A DNA stretch of 64,000 bases from an uncultured Candidatus Saccharibacteria bacterium (GTDB lineage: Bacteria > Patescibacteriota > Minisyncoccia > Phycocordibacterales > JACOZG01), in contig CAYUVV010000001.1 in the NCBI GenBank assembly GCA_964448295.1, positions 23,838 to 87,837 of the forward strand, in the 5' to 3' direction. The position numbers were made by a program, and so were the translations under genes. Below the pieces are notes generated by a model. That model saw only the letters and a list, made by a program, of their open reading frames with translations. It made no database searches and was not told the DNA's origin. This document shows, in pieces, positions 2,737 to 59,968 of this stretch (position 1 is its first letter; each line of letters opens with the position of its first letter).

Positions 2737-4083
2737 TTATTTACCACCTCCTTTCGTTTTGTCTGGGTTAACCAGCACCGCCGGTGCTTCTGAGCGACCG
2801 CCGAATCGGCCTAGAAACAGCGTGGTTGCGGCTGTGTTGTTTTTCATCGCTTCCGGCAAAGCTTGGTTCTCTAGGTAGCACCTTAGAGCCTCAGCTAGTT
2901 GATCATTTGGTATCCCCTCTTCTTTAAACACCCTGATAATCTCTTTCAATCTCTCGCTTTCACCTTGGCCTGTATTCCTTAAGACCTGTCTGTCTCCCTC
3001 CGATTTAGCGACATCCCCTTCAGCCGTTAATATTGCCAGCTGTTTGGCTTGCACCGCTTTTTCAAGATCCTTGGTAGCCTCATCGGCTTGGGATTCGACC
3101 ACTTCGACACTTTCTATCACGACTCCAAAAGTCTCGAGTAGACCTTTTTCGTCAATGAACCTGGTGTCTTTTGATCCGTCAGTGGGCTCCTTGCCTACGA
3201 GCTTACACAGATATTCATAACACTCTCCATTATCTCGTAAGGTTTTGAAATAATTAACGCCGACGTTGATTTTTCGCAGAGCCTTCTCTAGGGGCGAACC
3301 TCTGCCTCGGGCTGTTTCCAGCCATGTTGCCAGAGTTAGGGGTTGGCCGTTTATTCGACATTCCGCAAAGTAGTTAGATACCGCCGCTTGAACTGCTCGA
3401 TCGAGAGAACGAAGAAACTCCTTGCCCTTGAAAGTATAAGCCGCAACCGTCGGCCTAACTACCAGGTAAATCACCTGTAGAAGTAGGTCAATTTTGGAGT
3501 TATCCCTCATCTCGATCGCTTCTACGAGAACAAACCGTACAATCTTTCTCCGGAGCGAGAGAACAACATTATCTCGCTCGTCAGACTTTCTGTAAAGCTT
3601 GTCTCGTATACGAACGTCCTTTTTCTTTTTGTTTGTATCATCCGGCTTTTCTTCGAGATAGAGTTTATCTATCACGATTCGTCGGACTTTCTTCTGAAAC
3701 CAAAGCCAACCGACGAATCGAATTCTCCATAGCCGCCAGATGATTCTTTGTATCCACCTCGTACCCCAAAGTGTCCCTCTAAACCAGCGTTGTGCCCACT
3801 CTCGTTCCGTTTTTCGTTTGTACTTTTCCGGGTCCTCGTTTTCTCCTTTTTTCCGTTGGCTTACAATCCAGTGATGCCCATCAGGATCAACGTCTTTGGA
3901 CACAACGAATCCTGGCGTATTGGGCCAAATTGCCACCGGAGTTTCTCCGGCTTCCACAATGACTATGTGGTCCCGCTCGGGCTCCGAGAAGATAATTGAC
4001 CTTTTGGCCAACATCGTCATCACAACTACAATCAGCACCGGAATCACCACGAGAGACAAAAACCAGAAAATCACCGCATCCAT
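2737..4083 (-). CDS. SPFH/Band-7 (stomatin/flotillin-like) domain membrane protein
   Basis: 448 aa with an N-terminal TM helix. The C-terminal region (VVIESVEVVESQADEATKDLEKAVQAKQLAILTAEGDVAKSEGD) resembles the SPFH C-terminal segment. No homology search was run. Confidence 0.45.
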   Translation of the reverse strand: MDAVIFWFLSLVVIPVLIVVVMTMLAKRSIIFSEPERDHIVIVEAGETPVAIWPNTPGFVVSKDVDPDGHHWIVSQRKKGENEDPEKYKRKTEREWAQRWFRGTLWGTRWIQRIIWRLWRIRFVGWLWFQKKVRRIVIDKLYLEEKPDDTNKKKKDVRIRDKLYRKSDERDNVVLSLRRKIVRFVLVEAIEMRDNSKIDLLLQVIYLVVRPTVAAYTFKGKEFLRSLDRAVQAAVSNYFAECRINGQPLTLATWLETARGRGSPLEKALRKINVGVNYFKTLRDNGECYEYLCKLVGKEPTDGSKDTRFIDEKGLLETFGVVIESVEVVESQADEATKDLEKAVQAKQLAILTAEGDVAKSEGDRQVLRNTGQGESERLKEIIRVFKEEGIPNDQLAEALRCYLENQALPEAMKNNTAATTLFLGRFGGRSEAPAVLVNPDKTKGGGK

Positions 4084-32486: not shown

Positions 32487-32999
32487 ATGTCTGAAGCAAC
32501 GGGAAATCACAGTGGCGGTCGGGGCGAACGAGGGCGTGGTGGTCGTGGCCGCCAAGACCGACCTGACTCGGACCTTGGCCACAAGGTTTTGGCGATTAGA
32601 CGGGTGACTCGGGTGGTGCGCGGTGGCCGACGCTTTAGCTTTTCGATTGTTCTGGTGGCGGGCGATCGTCGCGGGAAAGTGGGGATTGGTGTGGGCAAGG
32701 CCAGCGATATTGCGGTGGCGATTGAGAAGGCGATGAACAACGCCCGCAAGAATTTAATTAGTGTTTATCTCACACCAGAATTTACTCTGCCTCACGAAGT
32801 GTCGGCGAAGTTTAGTTCAGCTTTGGTGTCTATCCGGCCTTCGCCCGGGCGTGGATTAGTGGCGGGTAGCGCCGTTCGGGCCGTGCTCGAGTTGGTCGGC
32901 GCGCGCGATATCAGCGCCAAGATTTATTCCCGAAGCAAAAATCATTTGAATAACGTGCAGGCGGCACTCCGCGCCCTGCAAACGGTTAAGCCCGTCTAA
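32487..32999 (+). CDS. rpsE: 30S ribosomal protein S5
   Basis: dsRBD-like N-terminus and GIGVGKASDIAVAIEKA. rplO follows directly with no rpmD (L30) between them. Confidence 0.9.
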   Translation: MSEATGNHSGGRGERGRGGRGRQDRPDSDLGHKVLAIRRVTRVVRGGRRFSFSIVLVAGDRRGKVGIGVGKASDIAVAIEKAMNNARKNLISVYLTPEFTLPHEVSAKFSSALVSIRPSPGRGLVAGSAVRAVLELVGARDISAKIYSRSKNHLNNVQAALRALQTVKPV

Positions 33000-33011
33000 C
33001 TTTTTCAAAAG

Positions 33012-33440
33012 ATGCAATTACACGAGTTACAACCAAACACCAAACGGCGCGCTGGCAAACGCGTGGGGCGCGGAGGCAAGCGTGGCACCACGGCTGGCCG
33101 CGGCACGAAGGGTCAAAAGGCGCGGGCCGGGCACCGGATTCGTCCGGAGATTAGAGACGTGATTAAGCGTTTGCCAAAACTCCGTGGTCACGATTTTCGC
33201 CTTGGACGTTCGACGCCGCGGGTGGTTGTGCCTTTATCTCGTTTGCTTACGCTAAAAGAGCGGGTGATCACGCCGTTCGTTTTGCGCCGCGCCGGTTTAA
33301 TCCCGTCCGCCGCTCGTCTGCGGGTTAAGATTTTGGCCGACCACAGCGAAGTCAAAATTCCTATCCGGCTTAAGGGTTGTGATGTTTCCACGGCGGTGCG
33401 GGCGATGGTTGAAAAAGCCGGCGGCAAAATTCAAGTTTAA
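33012..33440 (+). CDS. rplO: 50S ribosomal protein L15
   Basis: Gly/Arg-rich N-terminus. Confidence 0.9.
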   Translation: MQLHELQPNTKRRAGKRVGRGGKRGTTAGRGTKGQKARAGHRIRPEIRDVIKRLPKLRGHDFRLGRSTPRVVVPLSRLLTLKERVITPFVLRRAGLIPSAARLRVKILADHSEVKIPIRLKGCDVSTAVRAMVEKAGGKIQV

Positions 33441-41474: not shown

Positions 41475-41705
41475 TTACAAAAAGAGAGTTGCCAGGGCGG
41501 TGAGTAAGAAGATTGCCGCGAGGACGATGGTGGCCACAAACAAAACTTTTTCCGGGCCTCGCCTTTGGTAATTTATTCCACCGGAGCCAGAACCACCGAA
41601 AGCTCGTCCCAGAGACGCATCACTTTGTTGTATGAGGATGGTGGCGACCAAAATTACTGATACCACAATCTGCACCCAAGGCAGAATAGCATTTAAGATC
41701 GACAT
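41475..41705 (-). CDS. secG: Preprotein translocase subunit SecG
   Basis: MSILNAILPWVQIVVSVILVATILIQQSDASLG. The track ORF extends upstream to 41822. Confidence 0.75.
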   Translation of the reverse strand: MSILNAILPWVQIVVSVILVATILIQQSDASLGRAFGGSGSGGINYQRRGPEKVLFVATIVLAAIFLLTALATLFL

Positions 41706-41800
41706 TTTACCCGCTGAGTATAGCAAAACCGCCTGCCAACGCGCAAGAGGTGGGCTTTTTCCACACCGTCGCGAACGAGTATGAATTATACTAGAAAAGA

Positions 41801-44800
41801 ATGGATAGACAGAGTAGCTCACTTTCTCTCGCCGGCGTCTTTTTGGCTGCCCTTTTGTTTGCTTTAGCGCTATGGGCCGGCACCTACATCCCGATTGATA
41901 GTTTGGTTAGCGGTAGCAATCGTTTGGCGGTTGAGAAACAGTTGGCGCAAGTCGGTGGTGGCCCAACCACGGTTGTCTTGTCGGCCGCCGCGGATGCCGC
42001 CGTCCGCGGCGGCAACTTTCAGACCATAAATTACGGTAGCGGAAACGAGTTGGGAATATATCAAGCGGGTGGCCAGTGGGACATCCAACCCTATCTCCGT
42101 TTTGACCTATCTAATATTTCTGGCAATGTTACTGCCGCTCGTCTGCGTTTTTACATTGTCAATGGCGACGACTCGTCATCGCCCCGTCCGGTGAGCCTTC
42201 TCGCCGTAGACGACAATTCTTGGGATGAGACAAGTTTAAACTGGCAAAATCGGCCCAGCACCGGTTCCGCCCTCGGCTCTTTTGCTTTTGGATCAGAGAC
42301 GAGCACTTTTACCGGCTGGCAGGATGTAACCAATTATGTGTCGGGGAAGGTTGCGGCTGGCGCGGCTTCTTTTGCTCTGCGTCATAGCGCGGGCGGCGAG
42401 TATGCCGGCATTGCTTCTCGTGAGTCTGGGCAGCCGGCCGAACTGGAGGTGACTTATGACTCGACGGTGGTTACGCCGCCCACCACCCGCACGCTTGCCA
42501 CCACGGCTAATCCCAGCGCCGGTGGCACTATCAGCCGCCAACCGAATCAGACGAACTACCCTGACGGGAGCGTCGTCACCCTCACCGCCACTCCCAATCC
42601 GGGCTACCAATTCAATAACTGGTCAGGCGATCTCTCTGGCTCACAAAATCCGGTTTCGGTTCAGCTCACGCAAGACAAAACCGTGACGGCCAATTTTGGA
42701 GTGACGTCGCCGAGCGGTGGGAATAGCGGTTACGATCTAACTTGGTCTACTTATTTTGGCGGTTCAGGCGAAGATACAGTGCGTGACGTGGTTGTCGACG
42801 CTGGCGGTAATGTTTATGTGACCGGGGGTACTGGTTCTAGTAATTTTCCGCTAGTCAACCCTGCCCAACCCGCTTTTGGCGGCAATCATGATGTTTTTGT
42901 CTCCAAATTTGGCGCCAACGGCGCCCTGCTGTGGTCAACCTATCTCGGTGGTCCCGGTTACGATCGAGCTTACGCGGTGGAACTGGACGGCGTCGGTAAC
43001 GTCTATGTGGCCGGCCGGGCGGGTAGCGGTTTTCCGGTGACGTCGGGCGTTTTGCAGGCGACCTTTGCCGGCGATTCCAATGTTAATAATAACTATGGCC
43101 CACAGGATGGCTTTGTTGCTAAGTTTAATTCCAACGGGCAGAAACTGTGGGCAACCTATCTCGGCGGGCCAGACCGCAGTTTTATCCGAGACATTGACGT
43201 GGATTCTTCTGGCAACGTTTACGCTGTTCTTACTGACGTTTCCCAATCAAACGGATACCAAACGACTGGCGCTTATCAAGGAACGGTTGCCGGTGGCGCT
43301 AACGGCTTTATCGCTAAATTGAATTCAGCCGGTACGCAAATCCAGTGGGGAACTTATGTTGGCGGCGCATCGAGTGGTCCCGGGTTTGGCACTCCCTCGA
43401 TCCGGGTGGCAAGCAACGGCGAAGTGGTTGCGATGGGAACAAGCGCTTTTGCTGGTGACCCAGTCAGCAACGGTTTGCGCTCCCATGCCGGCGCTTTGGA
43501 TATGTACGTTTTACGCTTGAGCAGTGATGGCCGGACGCGGCGTTGGTCTACTTATCTTGGCGGGAACGCTGACGAATTTTCGGAAACACATTCATTGGCC
43601 CTTAACAGCGCTGGCGATGTCTATGCTGCTTTTACCACTCGCTCTAGCAATTTGCCCGGGGCGGGCGTTGGTTACCAACTAGCGTTAGGTGGAGTCTCTA
43701 ATACCGGCAATTATAACGGCGACGGTTTTGTCGCTAAATTGTCTGGTAACGGTGGAGTCCTGCTTGCCGCCACTTATCTCGGTGGCAGTTCGGGTGACGG
43801 CCTCGAGGGGGTGGGAGTAGACAGCGCTGGGGGTGTTTATGTAAGTGGGGGAACCTTCTCCGCTGATTTCCCAATTACGAGCGACGCGCGGCAAAATAGC
43901 CGCCGGGGCGAAGCAGATTGGTTTGTCTCTAAACTGACCGGCGATCTATCTTCTCTTGTTTACTCCACTTACCTTGGTGGCACCTCGAACTGTGCGGCAG
44001 CCGGAGACACGGTTTGTGATTATGCCCGTAGCGCCACAGTAAATGCCGGCGGGGATTTTTATGTTGTTGGCCATACTAATTCTAGTAATTTCCCGACGCT
44101 TGGGGCTACGCCAAGTCTTAGTACTAACCCCGCCGGGAGTAATGTCAATACCGGGGCGATTGCCAAATTTTCTACCGGCGGAGTAGTTGTCCCGCCTACG
44201 GATTACACGATTACCGCGTCTGTTAGTGGTGGTAACGGCACAATTAACCCGAGCGGCGTGGTTACTGTTTCGGCTGGCGGCTCGCGCACGTTCACTTTCA
44301 GTCCGGCCACTGGTTTTCAAGTCGGAACAGTGGTGGTTGATGGAGCTACCCTGACGCCCCCGCCTCCCACTTATACCTTTTCCAATGTTTCGAGCGCGCA
44401 CACAATAACAATTAGTTTTTCTCCCGTTGCACCCACCACCCGCACGCTTGCCACCACGGCTAATCCCAGCGCCGGTGGCACTATCAGCCGCCAACCGAAT
44501 CAGACGAACTACCCTGACGGGAGCGTCGTCACCCTCACCGCCACTCCCAATCCGGGCTACCAATTCAATAACTGGTCAGGCGATCTCTCTGGCTCACAAA
44601 ATCCGGTTTCGGTTCAGCTCACGCAAGACAAAACCGTGACGGCCAATTTTGGAGTGGTTCAAGCGGTTCAGCCTCTTTTGTTGCGTTTGGAATTTGATGA
44701 CGATAATGCCGACGGCGTGGCCACCGACTCTTCTTCCTTTGGGAACAACGGGACTTGTGTTGGCGCTGTTTGCCCACGTTACTTGAGTGCGGGGAGCGAG

Positions 44801-47800
44801 GATGGTTCAGGGGCGTACGACTGGGACGGAACGAACGATGTACTTGCTTTGCCGGACAGCCCCAGTCTGCGGCCGACGACCAACCTTTCAATTGCGACCT
44901 GGGTCAGGTTTTCATCTTTGAGCGCCGCGCAAGCAATCGTGAATCGCTGGTCTACCAACGGTTTTGCTTGGAGTTTTGCCACCCACTGGCAGAATCCCCG
45001 AGAGTTTTATTTGGCGCTTGACGGGGACGGCACAGCGCCGGCTGATTATTTTGCCATTTCGGCTGGGGCCAATTTGCAACCCAACACTTGGTACCATTTG
45101 GCCGCAACATTTGACGGTAATTCGGTTATTCTATACAAAAACGGGCAGCCCTTACCGACCACAGTGAGTGGGACGAGGCCCGTTCGGCTCCATACCGGTC
45201 CCTCTACTCCACTTGTTGGTTCGATTGGCGGTACGTCTTTTTTAAACGGTCGCCTTGATCGCACCAGAATTTTTGATAGCGCACTGACGCCGAGCGAGAT
45301 CGCGGTGTTGGCTCAAGTTTCAAACCAAACCGGCGACGTTACGCCGCCGGTGGTGGCCGTTACCGCGCCTGTTTCCGGCGTAACTCTTTCCGGCGTAGTT
45401 AATTTTGCCGCCACCGCCGCTGATGTTGGCGGTAGTATCGCGGGCGTTCGATTTTTGCTTGACGGCATCGCGCTTGGCCAAGAGATTACGACCGCGCCAT
45501 ATGCCACAATTTGGGATAGCGCCACGGTGGCTAACGGCCCCCATCAATTGGTGGCCGAGGCTCGTGATGCGGCGGGTAATTTATCCACTAGCGCTCCCGT
45601 CAATTTCGTCGTTAACAATCAAGCGGTTGGTGCAATCACGATCAATTTAACCGCTTTGCCGGCGAGTGGTGCGGCACCCTTGGCGGTCTTCTTTGATGCC
45701 AGTGGCACGACGTATGGCGGTTCGGCGATTCGGCCTTTTCACGATCTTGACTATCGTTGGGATTTTGGTGATCCGGCGAGCGGTGTTTGGGATACCAACG
45801 GCCAGAGCCGCAATGCTGGTCGGGGCCCACTTAATGCCCACGTCTTTGAACGTCCGGGGACTTATACCGTAACGCTTAGTGTGAGCGACGGCCAAGGGCA
45901 GGTGGCTACCAGACAGTCCATCGTCAACGTTAATGTGCCGACGAGCGGCACTTGTTATTCCACGACTGGTAATTTTAGCGGTTGCCCGACCGGTTTCCAG
46001 CAGGTTACAACGTCGCAGGTTGCGGGCAATGGTTTGTACCGTCGCGGCGAAACGTTTACTCGGGTTGGCAATCTGAGTAATGTCAGCTTGCTTGGTGCAT
46101 TTGGCACTGGTCCGCGGCCACGCCTGGTTTTCACCAGCGCGCCCAGTGCTGTGTCGGCTTCGAATAATGCCCTTATCCACGGCGTGGCGATTGATGGCGG
46201 CGGCTATGCTATCCAGGCTGGTGGGTTGGGCACCGAGCATTTGTTTGTCGTTGATAATGAGATCAAAAATTTCTATAACTACGGTTTGTATAAGGGGCCG
46301 TTCAGTCTGGGGCCGGAGGTTGCTTCACGGTATAACGCGGTGATGGGTAATTGGTTTGACACCGCCAGTTCAAATGAGCACGCTATCAGGACATACATTG
46401 CCAAGTCCTATATAGGCCATAACCGGATTGACGGCAACTATCCCCGCGGGACCAATATCAAATTTGTGGGCACCTTGTGTGCTGATGGCTCCAACGATTA
46501 CAACCTGATCGCGGATAACTATTTCAATCATCGGGAACCGCAGGCCGGCATGTTGGCTATTGGCGCGGGCGACGCTGGTCATATCAACTGCTCCAAGGAT
46601 CTAATAATTGAGCGGAATTATTTTGATAATAAAATTGACGGTTGGCCGAAGGCGGCGATGGGGGCAGGCACCAGGTTCGATAGGGTAACGATTAGGAACA
46701 ATATCGCCCGCGAGATGTCGCACTTTATCAGTAATACCGGCGAGACCGGGGCGTCCTATAGTGATTGGCGCATTTACAACAATCTTTTCTATAACACCAA
46801 CCTATTTCCGAGTGGTTATTATTTCTTGTTGTCTAAGGGCTCGATGCCCGGTTTAGAAGTTAGAAACAACATTGTACAGACCTTTGGCGGTTCCGTGAGG
46901 GCTGGTTTAGAATTGCAAAAGGATGCCCCCGCTACCGTAACCGAGACGAACAATATTTGGTACGGCGATTTTAATCCATTATTTAGGATTGGCGGTACAA
47001 ATTATTCCTTTGCCCAGTGGCAGGCTTTGGGTAAAGGGGCGGGTAGTTTGATACAAAATCCATTTTTAACCAGTCCCGGCAATGGTGATTTTTCCTTGAC
47101 GGCCGCTAGTCCAGCAATTGATCAAGGATTTTCTCTTCGCTCGGTGGCAAACGATTTTCTCGGCAATTACCGCCCGCATGACGGTAATAATTCCGGCACG
47201 GCGGAGTGGGATATCGGACCTTACGAATTTGGCTCGAGTGGTGGCGGCAACCCCAACCCGCCCACCACTACCTACTACACCATTACCGTCAACGCTGGCG
47301 CCAACGGCACAGTTAATCCCGGCACAGCGACGGTGGCCGCCGGCAGTAGTCAAAGTTTTACGATTACGCCGAATGGTGGTTATCAAATAGCCAATGTTTT
47401 AGTTGACGGCCAATCAATGGGGCCAATTACCACCCACACTTTTTCTGGTGTTCAAGCCAACCATAATCTCACTGCCGCTTTCAGTCCGTTTGTTCCGTCT
47501 GATACTACCCCGCCTATTATTTCCAATGTGCGGGCGACGAATATCAGTCAGACCGGCGCGCTTATCACCTGGCAAACCGATGAGCCGGCCCGATCTTTTG
47601 CGGAGTATGGTTTTACCACGGCCTACGGCCAGCAAACAGTAAACACTACGGTTTTGGCCACTAATCATGCCGCCAATTTAAATAATTTGTCTCCCGGGGT
47701 GGTTTATCATTATCGGGCTGTTTCTATCGATGCCTTAGGCAATTTGTCTCGTTCAATCAATTTTGTGTTTCAAACTTTGCCAAGCCCTGTTCCCGATACC

Positions 47801-49081
47801 ACCCCTCCGGGCGCAATTCAGGGTTTGACAGCCGTGATTGGCGGCGCCGGCCTAACATCTTATCTAGTAAGTTGGGCGGCTCCGGCCCAAGACGGTAATG
47901 TTGCAAGCTCTGGCGCGGTTGCTAACTACGACCTTCGTTATTCTCTACAGAATATCACAGAAGCGAATTGGTCTTCTGCTGTTGCGGTAACCGGTGAGCC
48001 GCCACCCGGCATACCGGGCGCCTCACAGGATTACACCTTGGTTGGTTTAACTTCCGGCACGACGTATTATGCCGCTCTTAAATCCACTGATGTGGCCAAC
48101 AATCTCTCGCCGCTATCTAATGTAATCTCTTTTAGAACTTTATCAGATCCGCCGCCTGGTCCCGTCATCCCCGGTGGTGGTCCTGGTGGTCCGCACGACG
48201 CTCGTCCGCCGGTATTTGCCTTGCAGGCGGAAATTACTCCCGGACCAGGACAGGCCGTGCTTACTTGGACTAAGCCGACTGATGCCAATTATGTGCGAAC
48301 GCTTATTGTTCGTAGTGCCAATCCCCTGACAGCTTCTGCTGCCAGCACCCAAAATCCAGAACGTCTCACGGGGACGACGGTGGTGTATGAGGGCGCCGAC
48401 CAGTCATTTACCGATACCGGTTTAACCAACGGGCGTACGTATTATTACGCCATTTATGCCTACGACCAGCGTCGTCAGTTCAATCGTCCACAAATTCTTT
48501 CGACCAAGCCCCTTGCCGGCTCGACGAATCAACAGAATGATCCTACCACCGCGCGCGTGGCGACGACGAATTCTTTTTCGGTGACCGATTCGTGTCGTGT
48601 CGAGTCGGTAGTAACGGCGCCAGTCTCGCTGGTCCGCGGTCCTTTTGGTGTTGGTTTGACTTCGCCAGAAGTGCGTCTTTTGCAGGCGATGCTTGCCACG
48701 GATTCTACGTTATATCCAGAGGGGGTGGTTGATGGTTATTATGGCCCGGCGGTAGTACGCGCCATTCAGCGTTTTCAAGCCCGTGAGGGACTAGTGCGGG
48801 CTGGGACACCAGAGACGACGGGTTATGGACTGGCCGGTCCGCAGACCCGCGCCGCCCTGAATCGGGTTTTGGGCGTTCCCAAAACTGTAACGCGAACGGT
48901 GTGTTCGTCTGGCGCGGTTTCAACAGCTGATGGTATTGGCAACTCCGTTTCCAATCCGACTAACACCGTCGGTGGCGATTTAAATAATTCTAGTAATTTA
49001 GCGGCGTTGCTAATTCGCTTGCGCCTAATTCTGCGTTTATTGCTCGAACGTCTCGGCGCGTTTATCTTCGGTTGGTGGTAA
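41801..49081 (+). CDS. Giant multidomain cell-surface protein (2,426 aa)
   Basis: N-terminal signal/TM, then two identical Listeria-Bacteroides-type repeats, about 10 SBBP beta-propeller repeats, InlB-B-like repeats, a LamG/ConA-like lectin domain, an Ig-like domain, a PKD domain, a right-handed parallel beta-helix, three FN3-like domains and a C-terminal peptidoglycan-binding (PG_binding_1-like) domain. Confidence 0.85.
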   Translation: MDRQSSSLSLAGVFLAALLFALALWAGTYIPIDSLVSGSNRLAVEKQLAQVGGGPTTVVLSAAADAAVRGGNFQTINYGSGNELGIYQAGGQWDIQPYLRFDLSNISGNVTAARLRFYIVNGDDSSSPRPVSLLAVDDNSWDETSLNWQNRPSTGSALGSFAFGSETSTFTGWQDVTNYVSGKVAAGAASFALRHSAGGEYAGIASRESGQPAELEVTYDSTVVTPPTTRTLATTANPSAGGTISRQPNQTNYPDGSVVTLTATPNPGYQFNNWSGDLSGSQNPVSVQLTQDKTVTANFGVTSPSGGNSGYDLTWSTYFGGSGEDTVRDVVVDAGGNVYVTGGTGSSNFPLVNPAQPAFGGNHDVFVSKFGANGALLWSTYLGGPGYDRAYAVELDGVGNVYVAGRAGSGFPVTSGVLQATFAGDSNVNNNYGPQDGFVAKFNSNGQKLWATYLGGPDRSFIRDIDVDSSGNVYAVLTDVSQSNGYQTTGAYQGTVAGGANGFIAKLNSAGTQIQWGTYVGGASSGPGFGTPSIRVASNGEVVAMGTSAFAGDPVSNGLRSHAGALDMYVLRLSSDGRTRRWSTYLGGNADEFSETHSLALNSAGDVYAAFTTRSSNLPGAGVGYQLALGGVSNTGNYNGDGFVAKLSGNGGVLLAATYLGGSSGDGLEGVGVDSAGGVYVSGGTFSADFPITSDARQNSRRGEADWFVSKLTGDLSSLVYSTYLGGTSNCAAAGDTVCDYARSATVNAGGDFYVVGHTNSSNFPTLGATPSLSTNPAGSNVNTGAIAKFSTGGVVVPPTDYTITASVSGGNGTINPSGVVTVSAGGSRTFTFSPATGFQVGTVVVDGATLTPPPPTYTFSNVSSAHTITISFSPVAPTTRTLATTANPSAGGTISRQPNQTNYPDGSVVTLTATPNPGYQFNNWSGDLSGSQNPVSVQLTQDKTVTANFGVVQAVQPLLLRLEFDDDNADGVATDSSSFGNNGTCVGAVCPRYLSAGSEDGSGAYDWDGTNDVLALPDSPSLRPTTNLSIATWVRFSSLSAAQAIVNRWSTNGFAWSFATHWQNPREFYLALDGDGTAPADYFAISAGANLQPNTWYHLAATFDGNSVILYKNGQPLPTTVSGTRPVRLHTGPSTPLVGSIGGTSFLNGRLDRTRIFDSALTPSEIAVLAQVSNQTGDVTPPVVAVTAPVSGVTLSGVVNFAATAADVGGSIAGVRFLLDGIALGQEITTAPYATIWDSATVANGPHQLVAEARDAAGNLSTSAPVNFVVNNQAVGAITINLTALPASGAAPLAVFFDASGTTYGGSAIRPFHDLDYRWDFGDPASGVWDTNGQSRNAGRGPLNAHVFERPGTYTVTLSVSDGQGQVATRQSIVNVNVPTSGTCYSTTGNFSGCPTGFQQVTTSQVAGNGLYRRGETFTRVGNLSNVSLLGAFGTGPRPRLVFTSAPSAVSASNNALIHGVAIDGGGYAIQAGGLGTEHLFVVDNEIKNFYNYGLYKGPFSLGPEVASRYNAVMGNWFDTASSNEHAIRTYIAKSYIGHNRIDGNYPRGTNIKFVGTLCADGSNDYNLIADNYFNHREPQAGMLAIGAGDAGHINCSKDLIIERNYFDNKIDGWPKAAMGAGTRFDRVTIRNNIAREMSHFISNTGETGASYSDWRIYNNLFYNTNLFPSGYYFLLSKGSMPGLEVRNNIVQTFGGSVRAGLELQKDAPATVTETNNIWYGDFNPLFRIGGTNYSFAQWQALGKGAGSLIQNPFLTSPGNGDFSLTAASPAIDQGFSLRSVANDFLGNYRPHDGNNSGTAEWDIGPYEFGSSGGGNPNPPTTTYYTITVNAGANGTVNPGTATVAAGSSQSFTITPNGGYQIANVLVDGQSMGPITTHTFSGVQANHNLTAAFSPFVPSDTTPPIISNVRATNISQTGALITWQTDEPARSFAEYGFTTAYGQQTVNTTVLATNHAANLNNLSPGVVYHYRAVSIDALGNLSRSINFVFQTLPSPVPDTTPPGAIQGLTAVIGGAGLTSYLVSWAAPAQDGNVASSGAVANYDLRYSLQNITEANWSSAVAVTGEPPPGIPGASQDYTLVGLTSGTTYYAALKSTDVANNLSPLSNVISFRTLSDPPPGPVIPGGGPGGPHDARPPVFALQAEITPGPGQAVLTWTKPTDANYVRTLIVRSANPLTASAASTQNPERLTGTTVVYEGADQSFTDTGLTNGRTYYYAIYAYDQRRQFNRPQILSTKPLAGSTNQQNDPTTARVATTNSFSVTDSCRVESVVTAPVSLVRGPFGVGLTSPEVRLLQAMLATDSTLYPEGVVDGYYGPAVVRAIQRFQAREGLVRAGTPETTGYGLAGPQTRAALNRVLGVPKTVTRTVCSSGAVSTADGIGNSVSNPTNTVGGDLNNSSNLAALLIRLRLILRLLLERLGAFIFGWW
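42479..42703 (+). repeat. Exact 225-bp intragenic direct repeat, copy 1
   Basis: Nucleotide-identical to 44432..44656. Flanking bases differ on both sides. Confidence 0.9.
44432..44656 (+). repeat. Exact 225-bp intragenic direct repeat, copy 2
   Basis: Offset of 1953 bp (multiple of 3) from copy 1, so in frame. Antisense spurious ORFs in the track are identical over this span. Confidence 0.9.
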
Positions 49082-49173
49082 GTTTGACCGCCAATAGTGC
49101 CAAGCGGGGTTGACAGCCGCGCGCGTGGCCTTATAATTCACTGCGCCTTAACCGTTATTTTATTAATTTTTAT

Positions 49174-58900: not shown

Positions 58901-59968
58901 ATGATCTCGAAAATCCCGCGCCCCCTCCAATTCGGAGATGGGGTGGCTTTGGTCAATCCGGCAGGAGTGCTTCCGGAGCGGTTCAAAAACCAACACGGAT
59001 ACGTCAAGGCACATCTTGAGGAACTTGGATTCGCGGTAAAAGACCTCGTAATCGAAAGTGGCTGGGAGGACGCACAAAGACGCAGCGAAACACTAATGTC
59101 GGCTTTCACCGACCCACAAGTGAAAGCGGTACTGCCTCTTTGTGGCGGTATAAGAATTTACGACGTTCTTCCGCTGATTGATTACGAGGTGTTAGCTAAT
59201 CATCCGAAGATCATCTGTGGTTCAAGCGAGCTTTCGGCTCTTGTGGTGACGATTGCTGAGAAGGCGGGCATTGTAACGTTTTTCGGTCCGCACCTGAACT
59301 TTCTGAACCCAAAGGCGTCAAAACTTGAGAACAGATTCACGGTAAGGAGCTTTTGGAATATGCTCCAATGGGATTGGCACGGAAGAAACGGCTTGAGCAA
59401 GAACGAGGCGTATCACTTTTTCGCCGCACCTCGAAAGCCAACGCTTCCGGTAACAGTTCGTAACATTTACCGTGACCCGACGCTCATCATAGACGACCGC
59501 TACAGGGACAATTTCTACTTCACCACTTCTAGTATGGATGTGACTGGAAAGCTCTTGATCGGATCACTTGCGGTCATGGCGAAGCTTTGTGATGAAGGCT
59601 TGTGTCCCGATGTAACGGATAAGATCGTCATGCTCGATTCGCTGGATATGTCATTCGAAACGATTGTCGAATTGATCCAGCGCTTCAATGCTCACTGCGA
59701 TCTTTCCCGCGCCGCAGCTGTTGTCTTTTCCTCGCTCGCCGAGAGGACGGATCGAAAGAATCGCTTGCATCCGGAATTGAGAGATTCTGATCGGGTGAAG
59801 GGTTTTCTTCAGGAAGTCTCGGGACTTCTTAGAGGAAGGCCGCCGCTCTTTCACGGTTTTCCCGTTGGACACTGTACGTACAAACTCACTCTGCCGATTG
59901 GGATTACCGCCTCCATCGTTGTGGAAACGGGCGACTTGCTACTCACGGAGTTCCCGCATCAACAATAA
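58901..59968 (+). CDS. S66-family LD-carboxypeptidase (LdcA / microcin-C7 immunity MccF-like)
   Basis: 355 aa. ICGSSELSALVV matches the S66 nucleophile-Ser block. A GGAGGTG SD lies upstream. Confidence 0.6.
   Translation: MISKIPRPLQFGDGVALVNPAGVLPERFKNQHGYVKAHLEELGFAVKDLVIESGWEDAQRRSETLMSAFTDPQVKAVLPLCGGIRIYDVLPLIDYEVLANHPKIICGSSELSALVVTIAEKAGIVTFFGPHLNFLNPKASKLENRFTVRSFWNMLQWDWHGRNGLSKNEAYHFFAAPRKPTLPVTVRNIYRDPTLIIDDRYRDNFYFTTSSMDVTGKLLIGSLAVMAKLCDEGLCPDVTDKIVMLDSLDMSFETIVELIQRFNAHCDLSRAAAVVFSSLAERTDRKNRLHPELRDSDRVKGFLQEVSGLLRGRPPLFHGFPVGHCTYKLTLPIGITASIVVETGDLLLTEFPHQQ

What the first reader, a model, noticed from the sequence alone, without database searches (positions are those of the whole stretch)
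41801..49081. Giant 2,426-aa mosaic surface protein with at least eight domain types and a peptidoglycan-anchoring C-terminus
Reading the translation reveals a signal anchor, two Listeria-Bacteroides-type repeats, about 10 SBBP beta-propeller repeats, InlB-B-like repeats, and a LamG/ConA-like lectin domain (TWVRF...WYHLAATFDGNSVILYKNG). There is also an Ig-like domain, a PKD domain (RWDFGDP...GTYTVTLSVSDGQG), a long right-handed beta-helix (NN/NG ladders), and three FN3-like modules. The tail is a PG_binding_1-like domain (GPAVVRAIQRFQAREGLVRAG...GPQTRAALNRV). This is an adhesin or hydrolase-like architecture plausibly used for host-cell or polysaccharide contact. secG is divergently adjacent.
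Basis: partly seen in the sequence, partly recalled or inferred. Interest (0 to 1): 0.55.

Follow-up and report, generated by a model that had tools for sequence, protein, structure and literature searches.

The report
Giant mosaic cell-surface protein, CPR bacterium
This is one intact 2,426-residue gene from an uncultivated ultra-small (Paceibacteria/CPR) bacterium; it encodes an exported, probably wall-tethered protein made of sugar-binding, spacer and beta-helix domains, which is a real but fairly ordinary kind of bacterial surface adhesin or glycan-processing protein.

Summary

- It missed an N-terminal CBM96/DNRLRE carbohydrate-binding module.
- The propeller has 7 SBBP blades, not about 10.
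- 'Listeria-Bacteroides' and 'InlB-B-like' repeats are one domain type, present in 4 copies.
- The PG_binding_1 domain is followed by 67 more residues that end in a Leu/Arg helix.

The genome is Patescibacteria (CPR), class Paceibacteria, by GroEL. Among 5.8 billion proteins, only one other has the full architecture. It is 64% identical, almost gap-free and syntenic.

Three related genomes have secG directly next to groES, so the gene is a lineage-specific occupant of that divergent spacer. A fourth relative carries a different 4,225-aa giant in front of groES. That protein shares the Big_7-PKD-beta-helix core and the fn3-PG_binding_1 tail.

Best reading: a wall-tethered, glycan-directed adhesin that may also process glycan. 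It is a new member of a known kind, of modest interest.

The parts
41801..49081 (+). Complete gene, 2,426 codons plus stop
   Evidence: ORF list and translation. Identical protein P0001 and 64%-identical full-length orthologue P0002.
41822..41890 (+). N-terminal hydrophobic segment (residues 8-30): Sec signal peptide or signal anchor
   Evidence: The only classical hydrophobic stretch of the two termini (Kyte-Doolittle above 1.6). The motif xWAGT(Y/F)IP is conserved in the orthologue. Whether it is cleaved was not tested.
41969..42454 (+). CBM96 / DNRLRE carbohydrate-binding module (residues 57-218)
   Evidence: Pfam CBM96 109 bits (cut-off 26) and NCBIfam DNRLRE 71.1 bits (cut-off 34). PDB 8wab_A at 2.3e-12 and the alginate-lyase CBM 7vbo_A at 6.7e-8.
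42479..42703 (+). InlB B-repeat-like domain (Flg_new_2) copy 1 (residues 227-301); first copy of a perfect 225-nt direct repeat
   Evidence: Pfam 65.6 bits as a segment. 100% nucleotide identity to 44432-44656.
42713..44170 (+). Seven-bladed SBBP beta-propeller (about residues 305-790)
   Evidence: Pfam SBBP 86 bits. Seven [WAY][SAG]T[YF][LFV]GG blade motifs at residues 315, 378, 450, 516, 582, 656 and 721. PDB CylK propeller at 1e-21. 73% identity to the orthologue.
44189..44416 (+). Fourth InlB B-repeat-like Ig domain (residues 797-872), not recognised by Pfam
   Evidence: 48% identical to the Flg_new_2 domain at residues 1826-1897. It also aligns to the Flg_new_2-like region of the L004 giant.
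44432..44656 (+). Flg_new_2 copy 2 (residues 878-952); second copy of the perfect 225-nt repeat
44825..45304 (+). Laminin_G_3 / ConA-like lectin domain (residues 1009-1168)
   Evidence: Pfam 86.7 bits vs 27.6. PDB 4qvs_A at 3.3e-8.
45347..45553 (+). Big_7 bacterial Ig domain (residues 1183-1251)
   Evidence: Pfam 49.1 bits vs 24.1.
45677..45925 (+). PKD domain (residues 1293-1375)
   Evidence: Pfam PKD_4 43.4 bits and PKD 42.6 bits. 58% identical to the PKD domain of the L004 giant.
45938..47236 (+). Right-handed parallel beta-helix (residues 1380-1812) with a choice-of-anchor-Q-type C-terminal cap (residues 1763-1810)
47276..47485 (+). Flg_new_2 copy of subtype B (residues 1826-1895)
   Evidence: Pfam 32.1 bits vs 23.6.
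47510..48520 (+). Three FN3 modules (about residues 1904-1995, 2002-2116, 2135-2240), with a Pro/Gly linker before the third
   Evidence: Pfam fn3 54.5 bits, three stretches, and Pur_ac_phosph_N 59.4 bits. Boundaries.
48638..48877 (+). PG_binding_1 domain (residues 2280-2359)
   Evidence: Pfam 37.8 bits vs 23. 80% identical to the orthologue, the best-conserved segment. 46% identical to the L004 giant.
48992..49075 (+). C-terminal Leu/Arg-rich helix ending in GWW (residues 2398-2425); function unknown
   Evidence: The only part of the C-terminal AF2 model with pLDDT 64-75, predicted as a helix. Its character is conserved in the orthologue and partly in L004. It is not a classical TM segment, and its amphipathicity is not above shuffles.
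41475..41705 (-). secG, 76 aa, divergent neighbour (context)
   Evidence: Pfam SecG. 76-aa gene calls in relatives. 75% identity to the orthologous SecG.
49110..49137 (+). Consensus sigma-70-type promoter of groES-groEL, just downstream of the giant gene (context)
   Evidence: 12 of 12 hexamer matches. A TTGnnn-N16-TATAAT element (TTGACn in five of the seven) lies upstream of groES in all seven genomes compared.

Best explanation
This is a single functional gene of a Paceibacteria (CPR/Patescibacteria) bacterium. It encodes a Sec-exported, cell-envelope-tethered surface protein directed at glycans.

Proposed layout (inferred):
- The N-terminal hydrophobic segment takes the protein across the membrane and is probably cleaved.
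- The C-terminal module (three FN3 domains, PG_binding_1, terminal Leu/Arg helix) holds the protein at the cell's own wall.
- The FN3, Ig-like (Big_7, PKD) and four InlB-B-repeat domains act as rigid spacers.
- The distal N-terminal half presents three carbohydrate-recognition-type modules: CBM96/DNRLRE, a seven-bladed SBBP propeller and a LamG lectin domain.
- A central PKD-beta-helix unit of the pectate-lyase fold is, with the propeller and the PG-binding domain, among the best-conserved parts.

Proposed function: to bind the tiny cell to a polysaccharide-coated surface, such as a host cell envelope or a biofilm matrix. The beta-helix either adds a further binding groove or cuts/modifies the bound polymer, most plausibly an anionic one.

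Shown: gene integrity, domain identities, the beta-helix fold, conservation, taxonomy and synteny. Inferred: topology, wall tethering, ligand class and any catalysis.
For: One real gene:
- The ORF is intact.
- The full-length orthologue is 64% identical and nearly gap-free in the same secG / giant / groES-groEL context.
- That divergence is in the range of neighbouring genes such as L18, L15, SBP5 and MFS at 56-64%, so all 2,426 codons are under purifying selection.

Extracellular:
- There is an N-terminal hydrophobic signal.
- All domains are of extracellular types.
- The ten cysteines lie in five neighbouring pairs. Nine are at conserved positions in the orthologue; the tenth (C2265) is shifted.

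Glycan-directed:
- CBM96/DNRLRE scores 109 bits, and its solved relatives include the alginate-binding CBM of an alginate lyase (PMC9971899).
- LamG scores 86.7 bits.
- The SBBP propeller has seven blades.

Functional core: the propeller (73%), beta-helix (72%) and PG_binding_1 (80%) are the best-conserved segments. Charged residues H1527, R1530, K1554, E1604 (32/33) and R1632 (31/33) are conserved across 33 distant beta-helix homologues.

Wall association:
- PG_binding_1 is above its cut-off.
- The window encodes an LD-carboxypeptidase, and a relative encodes FtsW/RodA. These fit a peptidoglycan wall.

A distant relative in the same genomic slot keeps exactly the Big_7-PKD-beta-helix core and the fn3-PG_binding_1 tail, while its other domains differ.

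Organism: GroEL is about 80% identical to Vogelbacteria, Kaiserbacteria, Nomurabacteria and Paceibacterota sequences.

Literature: parasitic Paceibacteria highly express secreted proteins with PG-binding, Ig-like and PKD domains, proposed to act in host attachment (PMC10936435).
Against: - No binding or activity was tested.
- The beta-helix is below the Pfam Beta_helix cut-off and matches no specific CAZy-type family. Structural matches form an undiscriminating plateau.
- The conserved E1604 and R1632 sit at equivalent positions of adjacent coils next to the Asn ladder. They could be a structural salt bridge rather than an active site.
- Cleavage of the signal peptide is not established. If it stays as an anchor, both ends would be held at the envelope.
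- PG_binding_1 could target a host's wall instead of the cell's own.
- The C-terminal model is poor (pLDDT 34).
- The gene is absent from most related genomes, so it is not essential to the lifestyle.
Confidence: 0.6

Rival explanations
1. The protein is primarily an enzyme: a cell-surface-tethered polysaccharide depolymerase or modifier (lyase, epimerase or glycosidase type). The beta-helix is the catalytic domain. CBM96, the propeller and LamG are substrate-targeting modules. It would be used to scavenge sugars or to breach or remodel a host's surface polymer.
For: - DNRLRE/CBM96 domains are reported in alginate, hyaluronate and pectate lyases and in archaeal disaggregatase (PMC9971899).
- Near-invariant charged residues occur on successive coils.
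- The beta-helix is one of the most conserved segments.
- A stand-alone PKD + beta-helix homologue (P0128) lies in an exopolysaccharide biosynthesis cluster.
- Some weak homologues carry disaggregatase-associated domains.
Against: - No significant sequence match to any characterised catalytic family. The best profile hit to an enzyme is GH110 at E = 7e-4, over about 80-125 of the 359 profile positions.
- The only strong PDB sequence hit is to the non-catalytic C-terminal cap of an uncharacterised protein (9rx2_A).
- The catalytic geometry could not be examined.
Confidence: 0.28
2. It is a structural envelope or S-layer-like protein that builds or decorates the cell's outer layer, without a specific external ligand.
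For: - The LamG domain's nearest solved relative is an 'S-layer domain-containing protein' (4qvs_A).
- DNRLRE domains occur in S-layer proteins (PMC9971899).
- There is a wall-binding domain at the C-terminal end.
Against: - It is absent from four of the five more distant related genomes examined. A main envelope component would be expected to be kept.
- There is a single copy and no self-assembly-type repeats.
- The make-up is dominated by lectin-type modules.
Confidence: 0.07
3. It is an artefact: an assembly chimera or a decaying pseudogene that happens to stay open.
For: - A perfect 225-nt internal direct repeat is the kind of feature that can arise from, or confuse, assembly and polishing.
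- The exact-protein look-up in the gene-position index failed.
Against: - An independent genome (GCA_964461325.1) has the same 2,420-aa architecture, collinear and almost gap-free, in the same neighbourhood.
- The identical protein is on record at NCBI.
- GC content is like the rest of the window.
- The repeat is in frame and coincides exactly with one domain.
Confidence: 0.02

Closest known systems
Secreted PG-binding / Ig-like / PKD proteins of parasitic Ca. Paceibacteria (Yanofskyibacterium, Minisyncoccus; PMC10936435)
   Same: Same bacterial class. Both are exported, carry PG-binding plus Ig-like and PKD domains, and have been proposed to act in host attachment.
   Different: The present protein is far larger and adds CBM96, an SBBP propeller, LamG and a beta-helix. 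The host of this organism is unknown.
4,225-aa giant protein upstream of groES in GCA_964648765.1 (locus L004)
   Same: Same genomic slot. It shares a Big_7-PKD-beta-helix-cap-Flg_new_2 core (26-36% identity) and an fn3-fn3-PG_binding_1-helix tail (35% identity).
   Different: In the 3,225 residues that could be read, it has no CBM96, SBBP propeller or LamG. It has more Big_7 and K319L-like PKD modules, and its C-terminal helix is truncated by overlap with the groES promoter. It is a paralogue-like relative, not an orthologue.
Multimodular polyuronate lyases and archaeal disaggregatase carrying DNRLRE/CBM96 plus a beta-helix (PMC9971899; PMC2447325)
   Same: One extracellular protein combines a DNRLRE/CBM96 module with a right-handed beta-helix. 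The CBM96 founder binds alginate.
   Different: The beta-helix here has no significant sequence similarity to PL or disaggregatase catalytic domains, and no catalytic residues could be aligned.
Beta-helix surface adhesins of monoderm bacteria, such as Streptococcus pneumoniae PfbA (PDB 3zpp/4mr0)
   Different: PfbA is anchored by LPXTG and sortase. This protein has no C-terminal LPXTG and uses PG_binding_1 instead. It also has many additional modules.
SBBP-repeat giant surface proteins of Acidobacteriota and other phyla
   Same: The seven-bladed SBBP propeller is 30-48% identical to them, and they too are embedded in long mosaic extracellular proteins.
   Different: Only the propeller (about 19% of the query) matches. 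Their other domains and anchors differ (DUF7948, SLH, PEP-CTERM-type).

Membership tests
CBM96 / DNRLRE domain | Profile match above the curated cut-off (Pfam PF24517, NCBIfam NF033679) | tested here: met
   109 bits vs 26 and 71.1 bits vs 34. PDB 8wab_A at 2.3e-12 and 7vbo_A at 6.7e-8.
CBM96 / DNRLRE domain | Binds alginate through a groove of Lys/Arg/Tyr residues, as in the founding member TM6-N4 | not tested
   The residue-by-residue mapping was not done. The alignment to 7vbo_A covers query residues 34-140 only. Binding is not testable here.
SBBP beta-propeller | Repeated SBBP units above the Pfam cut-off that form a closed propeller | tested here: met
   67-86 bits vs 20.5. Seven blade motifs at a spacing of about 63-74 residues. 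Match to the CylK propeller at 1e-21.
Laminin_G_3 (ConA-like lectin) | Full-length profile match above the cut-off | tested here: met
   86.7 bits vs 27.6, covering profile positions 1-151 of 151.
Flg_new_2 (divergent InlB B-repeat) | Profile match above the cut-off | tested here: met
   113.5 bits vs 23.6, three stretches. A fourth copy was found by 48% identity to the third.
Pfam Beta_helix (PF13229) | Profile score at or above the gathering cut-off | tested here: not met
   18.6 bits (whole protein) and 23.7 bits (segment) vs 25.9. 10 of 15 family members match at E <= 0.01.
Pectate-lyase-like right-handed parallel beta-helix fold | Three-sheet right-handed coil with an Asn ladder | tested here: met
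Characterised beta-helix CAZyme families (PL1/6/9, GH28/87/110/136, AlgE/AlgG epimerases) | Significant sequence similarity and the family's catalytic residues | tested here: not met
   No PDB enzyme sequence scores below E = 7e-4, even with a family profile. No Pfam family other than the generic Beta_helix and DUF5123 matches. Catalytic residues could not be aligned.
PG_binding_1 | Profile match above the cut-off | tested here: met
   33.7-37.8 bits vs 23. Three predicted helices (low confidence).
PG_binding_1 | Actually binds peptidoglycan | not testable with these tools
   Needs a pull-down with purified sacculi.
LPXTG sortase-anchored surface proteins | C-terminal LPXTG motif followed by a hydrophobic segment and a basic tail | tested here: not met
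   The only two LP.[TSA]G matches are at residues 618 and 1286, far from the C-terminus.
fn3 | Profile match above the cut-off | tested here: met
   54.5 bits vs 25, three stretches.
Choice-of-anchor Q domain (beta-helix C-terminal cap) | NCBIfam NF041518 at or above its cut-off | tested here: met
   27.4 bits vs 25. This cap is the part matched by most of the 1,602 HMMER hits and by 9rx2_A.

The most novel reading that the evidence does not exclude
The PKD-beta-helix unit would found an uncharacterised family of polysaccharide lyases or epimerases. A Paceibacteria episymbiont would use it, held on a peptidoglycan-tethered stalk, to grip and locally open the anionic surface polymer of its host. 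The two perfect 225-bp in-frame repeats that flank the propeller would let RecA-type recombination delete or restore that 651-codon 'head' cassette, giving switchable ligand specificity. The secG|groES spacer would then be a recurrent landing site for such giant 'contact' genes in this class.
Probability: 0.1. Interest if true: 0.6.

Novelty: new member of a known kind. Interest (0 to 1): 0.3.

Why it matters
CPR/Patescibacteria are abundant, mostly uncultivated bacteria thought to live attached to other cells, and the molecules that make contact are largely unknown. This gene is a concrete, well-delimited candidate: an exported, wall-associated protein with three lectin-type modules and a conserved beta-helix. 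It has one orthologue and one distant relative for comparison. If the beta-helix proved catalytic, it would define a new carbohydrate-active family. If the protein proved to bind a host polymer, it could help identify the host. As it stands, it is a careful annotation of a typical mosaic surface protein, not a new principle.

Tried and rejected
- Exact-protein look-up of the window gene in the gene-position index returned nothing, although the identical protein P0001 exists.
- The single genome-contig scan with the whole protein found only an unrelated Bryobacteraceae SBBP protein. The source genome is not among the GTDB representatives searched, and the organism had to be inferred from GroEL.
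- The single metagenome-contig scan with the C-terminal module keyed on the fn3 part. It returned 20 loci that share only an fn3 subtype. One short contig (L008) has fn3 + PG-binding. No further family members or groES linkage were found.
- The AF2 model of the C-terminal 296 residues had an alignment of only two sequences and was poor (pLDDT 34).
- The 'amphipathic membrane helix' idea for the C-terminal tail was rejected as unsupported, because its hydrophobic moment is not above shuffles.
- Co-transcription with groESL as an operon partner was rejected as a necessity. A consensus promoter precedes groES in all seven genomes. No CIRCE element is present.
- No paralogue of any domain is present elsewhere in the window.
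- Horizontal transfer judged from composition: GC is 0.539 vs 0.52 for the window, so there is no signal.
- A literature search for PDB 9RX2 found nothing.
Full report
**Observation**

Window 41801-49081 (+) is one open reading frame of 2,426 codons, starting with ATG and without internal stops. By chance this has a probability of about 1e-51. The identical protein is on record once (P0001, NCBI, contig of 257,657 bp, unnamed).

**Domain map**

Profile searches on the whole protein and on ten sub-segments give this order:

| Residues | Domain | Evidence |
|---|---|---|
| 8-30 | Hydrophobic signal | |
| 57-218 | CBM96/DNRLRE | 109 bits vs cut-off 26; NCBIfam 71 vs 34 |
| 227-301 | Flg_new_2 (InlB B-repeat) | |
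| 305-790 | SBBP propeller | Seven blade motifs |
| 797-872 | Ig-like domain unrecognised by Pfam | 48% identical to the Flg_new_2 at 1826-1897 |
| 878-952 | Flg_new_2 | |
| 1009-1168 | Laminin_G_3 | 86.7 bits |
| 1183-1251 | Big_7 | |
| 1293-1375 | PKD | |
| 1380-1812 | Beta-helix with a choice-of-anchor-Q cap (1763-1810) | See below |
| 1826-1895 | Flg_new_2 | |
| about 1904-2240 | Three fn3 modules | |
| 2280-2359 | PG_binding_1 | 34-38 bits vs 23 |
| 2360-2426 | 67-residue tail ending in a predicted helix at 2398-2425 | |

- missed the CBM96/DNRLRE module;
- overestimated the SBBP repeats (seven blades, not about 10);
- listed one domain type (Listeria-Bacteroides, which is the InlB-B repeat) under two names;
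- placed the PG-binding domain at the very end, when a tail follows it.

There is no C-terminal LPXTG motif. The ten cysteines lie in five neighbouring pairs. Nine are at conserved positions in the orthologue and one is shifted, which fits an extracellular, disulfide-bonded protein (inference).

**Organism and surroundings**

The window is otherwise housekeeping genes: IF-2, ClpB, PheS, SMC, RNase R, the ribosomal-protein/SecY/Adk/Map cluster, RNase J, SecG, GroES/GroEL, LemA, an M48 peptidase and an LD-carboxypeptidase. Rfam finds only seven tRNAs.

GroEL is about 80% identical to sequences named Patescibacteria group, Ca. Vogelbacteria, Kaiserbacteria, Nomurabacteria and Paceibacterota. In the orthologous contig, S5 is followed directly by L15 with no L30 gene, which from general knowledge is typical of CPR bacteria. 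The organism is therefore an uncultivated member of the class Paceibacteria.

secG is indeed divergently adjacent. Its true start is the ATG at 41705 (76 aa), which leaves a 95-nt spacer and no overlap.

**Comparative genomics**

Among 5.8 billion proteins, only one other has the whole architecture. P0002 is 2,420 aa, 64% identical over 100% of the length and almost gap-free. It lies in the same gene order, from ribosomal proteins to CDP-alcohol phosphatidyltransferase, in GCA_964461325.1. All other hits match single domains, chiefly the SBBP propeller.

The 64% identity is within the range of neighbouring genes: L18 64%, L15 64%, SBP5 60%, MFS 56% and GroEL 91%. The whole length is therefore maintained by selection, which also disposes of the 'several genes or frameshift' refutation. 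Within the protein, PG_binding_1 (80%), the propeller (73%) and the beta-helix (72%) are the best conserved.

Three related genomes (GroEL 77-81% identical) have secG and groES as direct divergent neighbours with no giant gene. One has a different arrangement, also without a giant. One (GCA_964648765.1) has a different 4,225-aa gene that ends 8 nt before groES. That protein shares two modules with ours:
- a Big_7-PKD-beta-helix-cap-Flg_new_2 core, 26-36% identical, with its PKD domain 58% identical;
- an fn3-fn3-PG_binding_1-helix tail, 35% identical.

No CBM96, propeller or LamG was found in the 3,225 residues that could be read. The conserved unit is thus a 'beta-helix core plus wall-binding tail', with exchangeable N-terminal modules. 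The secG|groES spacer is occupied only in some lineages.

A near-consensus sigma-70-type promoter precedes groES in all seven genomes (window 49110-49137, 12 of 12 matches). groESL therefore does not depend on read-through from the giant gene. No CIRCE operator is present.

**The beta-helix**

By sequence it is only a sub-threshold Beta_helix match. It has few close relatives: an exhaustive HMMER search of 1.84 billion representatives gave 1,602 hits at E <= 1e-3 but only 3 at E <= 1e-30, and many hits cover only the C-terminal cap.

- AlgE4 mannuronan epimerase, GH110A, the RbmB polysaccharide lyase, GH87 glucanases and PL6 lyases;
- NosD and phage tailspikes;
- the adhesins PfbA and Vag8.

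Foldseek gives only weak generic matches. A family profile against PDB sequences hits only the cap of an uncharacterised protein (9rx2_A, 9e-11), with GH110 at 7e-4. The fold is certain, but membership of any characterised enzyme family is not supported.

Across 33 homologues the Asn ladder is invariant, and the charged residues H1527, R1530, K1554, E1604 (32/33) and R1632 (31/33) are conserved. This is compatible with a binding or catalytic groove, but also with an inter-coil salt bridge.

Two pieces of circumstantial evidence lean towards a glycan-processing role:
- DNRLRE/CBM96 domains are reported in alginate, hyaluronate and pectate lyases and in archaeal disaggregatase (PMC9971899).
- One stand-alone PKD + beta-helix homologue sits in an exopolysaccharide biosynthesis cluster.

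**The C-terminal end**

PG_binding_1 is solid by profile. The genome encodes an LD-carboxypeptidase and relatives encode FtsW/RodA, so the cell very likely has its own peptidoglycan.

The terminal helix (...RLRLILRLLLERLGAFIFGWW) keeps its character in the orthologue and partly in L004. It is neither a classical transmembrane segment nor significantly amphipathic. Its role, whether at the membrane interface, in oligomerisation or in sorting, is unexplained.

**An internal curiosity**

Nucleotides 42479-42703 and 44432-44656 are 100% identical over 225 nt, in frame. Each copy encodes a complete Flg_new_2 domain, one on either side of the propeller. In the orthologue the two copies have diverged. 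The window's copies were therefore homogenised recently, by gene conversion or, less likely, by a polishing artefact. Recombination between them would remove 651 codons in frame.

**Mechanism**

Most likely (0.6) this is a Sec-exported protein held at the cell's own wall by the FN3-PG_binding_1-helix module. Ig-like, FN3 and InlB-B domains would act as spacers. A distal set of carbohydrate-recognition modules (CBM96, propeller, LamG), plus the beta-helix, would bind a polysaccharide-coated surface such as a host envelope or a biofilm matrix.

Whether the beta-helix also cleaves or modifies the polymer is open. The 'primarily an enzyme' rival is rated 0.28. The S-layer-type structural reading (0.07) and the artefact reading (0.02) are unlikely.

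This picture agrees with published work on cultured parasitic Paceibacteria. Their most highly expressed secreted proteins carry PG-binding, Ig-like and PKD domains and were proposed to act in host attachment (PMC10936435).

**Novelty and verdict**

Mosaic giant surface proteins are common, and each domain here is a known type. The particular combination is rare (two genomes) and the beta-helix subfamily is uncharacterised, but nothing departs from the known kind.

This is a new member of a known kind, and interest is about 0.3.

Noticed in passing
window 42479-42703 and 44432-44656: A perfect 225-nt in-frame direct repeat, spaced 1,953 nt apart. Each copy encodes a whole Flg_new_2 domain, one on either side of the SBBP propeller. 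The orthologue's two copies are diverged, which implies recent gene conversion (or a polishing artefact) and the potential for an in-frame 651-codon deletion.
   Followed up: partly
window 49110-49137 (+); equivalent sites in L001 and L003-L007: A 12-of-12 consensus TTGACA-N16-TATAAT promoter lies upstream of groES. A similar TTGnnn-N16-TATAAT element precedes groES in all seven related genomes. In L004 it lies inside the last codons of the 4,225-aa giant gene. No CIRCE/HrcA operator is found anywhere in the window.
   Followed up: partly
window 41475-41822 (-): The mechanically listed 115-aa GTG ORF for secG overlaps the start of the giant gene. The real secG is 76 aa, from the ATG at 41705, as in the relatives.
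   Followed up: yes
L004:1-9678 (GCA_964648765.1): A 4,225-aa gene ends 8 nt before groES. The index records no Pfam hits for it, but it actually contains Big_7, PKD, K319L-like PKD, a beta-helix, Flg_new_2, fn3 and PG_binding_1. It shares its core and its tail with the window protein.
   Followed up: partly
L007:12373-18338 (GCA_964356885.1): Two large secreted-type genes are inserted downstream of groEL in a relative that lacks the giant upstream: one of 1,121 aa (weak Peptidase_M11) and one of 856 aa (Big_7 + Beta_helix). The groESL neighbourhood seems to collect such genes.
   Followed up: no
window 48992-49075 (residues 2398-2425): A C-terminal Leu/Arg-rich helix ending in GWW, similar in the orthologue. 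It is not a classical TM segment, not significantly amphipathic and not an LPXTG signal. Its function is unexplained.
   Followed up: partly
window 32487-33440; L001:575-1562: Ribosomal protein S5 is followed directly by L15 with no L30 gene, as is typical of CPR bacteria.
   Followed up: no
window 58901-59968 (+): An LD-carboxypeptidase (Peptidase_S66), a peptidoglycan-recycling enzyme. It supports the presence of the cell's own peptidoglycan.
   Followed up: no
window 2737-4083 (-): A 448-aa ORF with no Pfam match at E <= 1e-4.
   Followed up: no
window 41801-49081, cysteine residues 731/739, 986/991, 1385/1395, 1560/1597, 2265/2368: All ten cysteines occur as five neighbouring pairs. Nine are at conserved positions in the orthologue and C2265 is shifted. 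This suggests disulfide bonds in an extracellular protein.
   Followed up: partly
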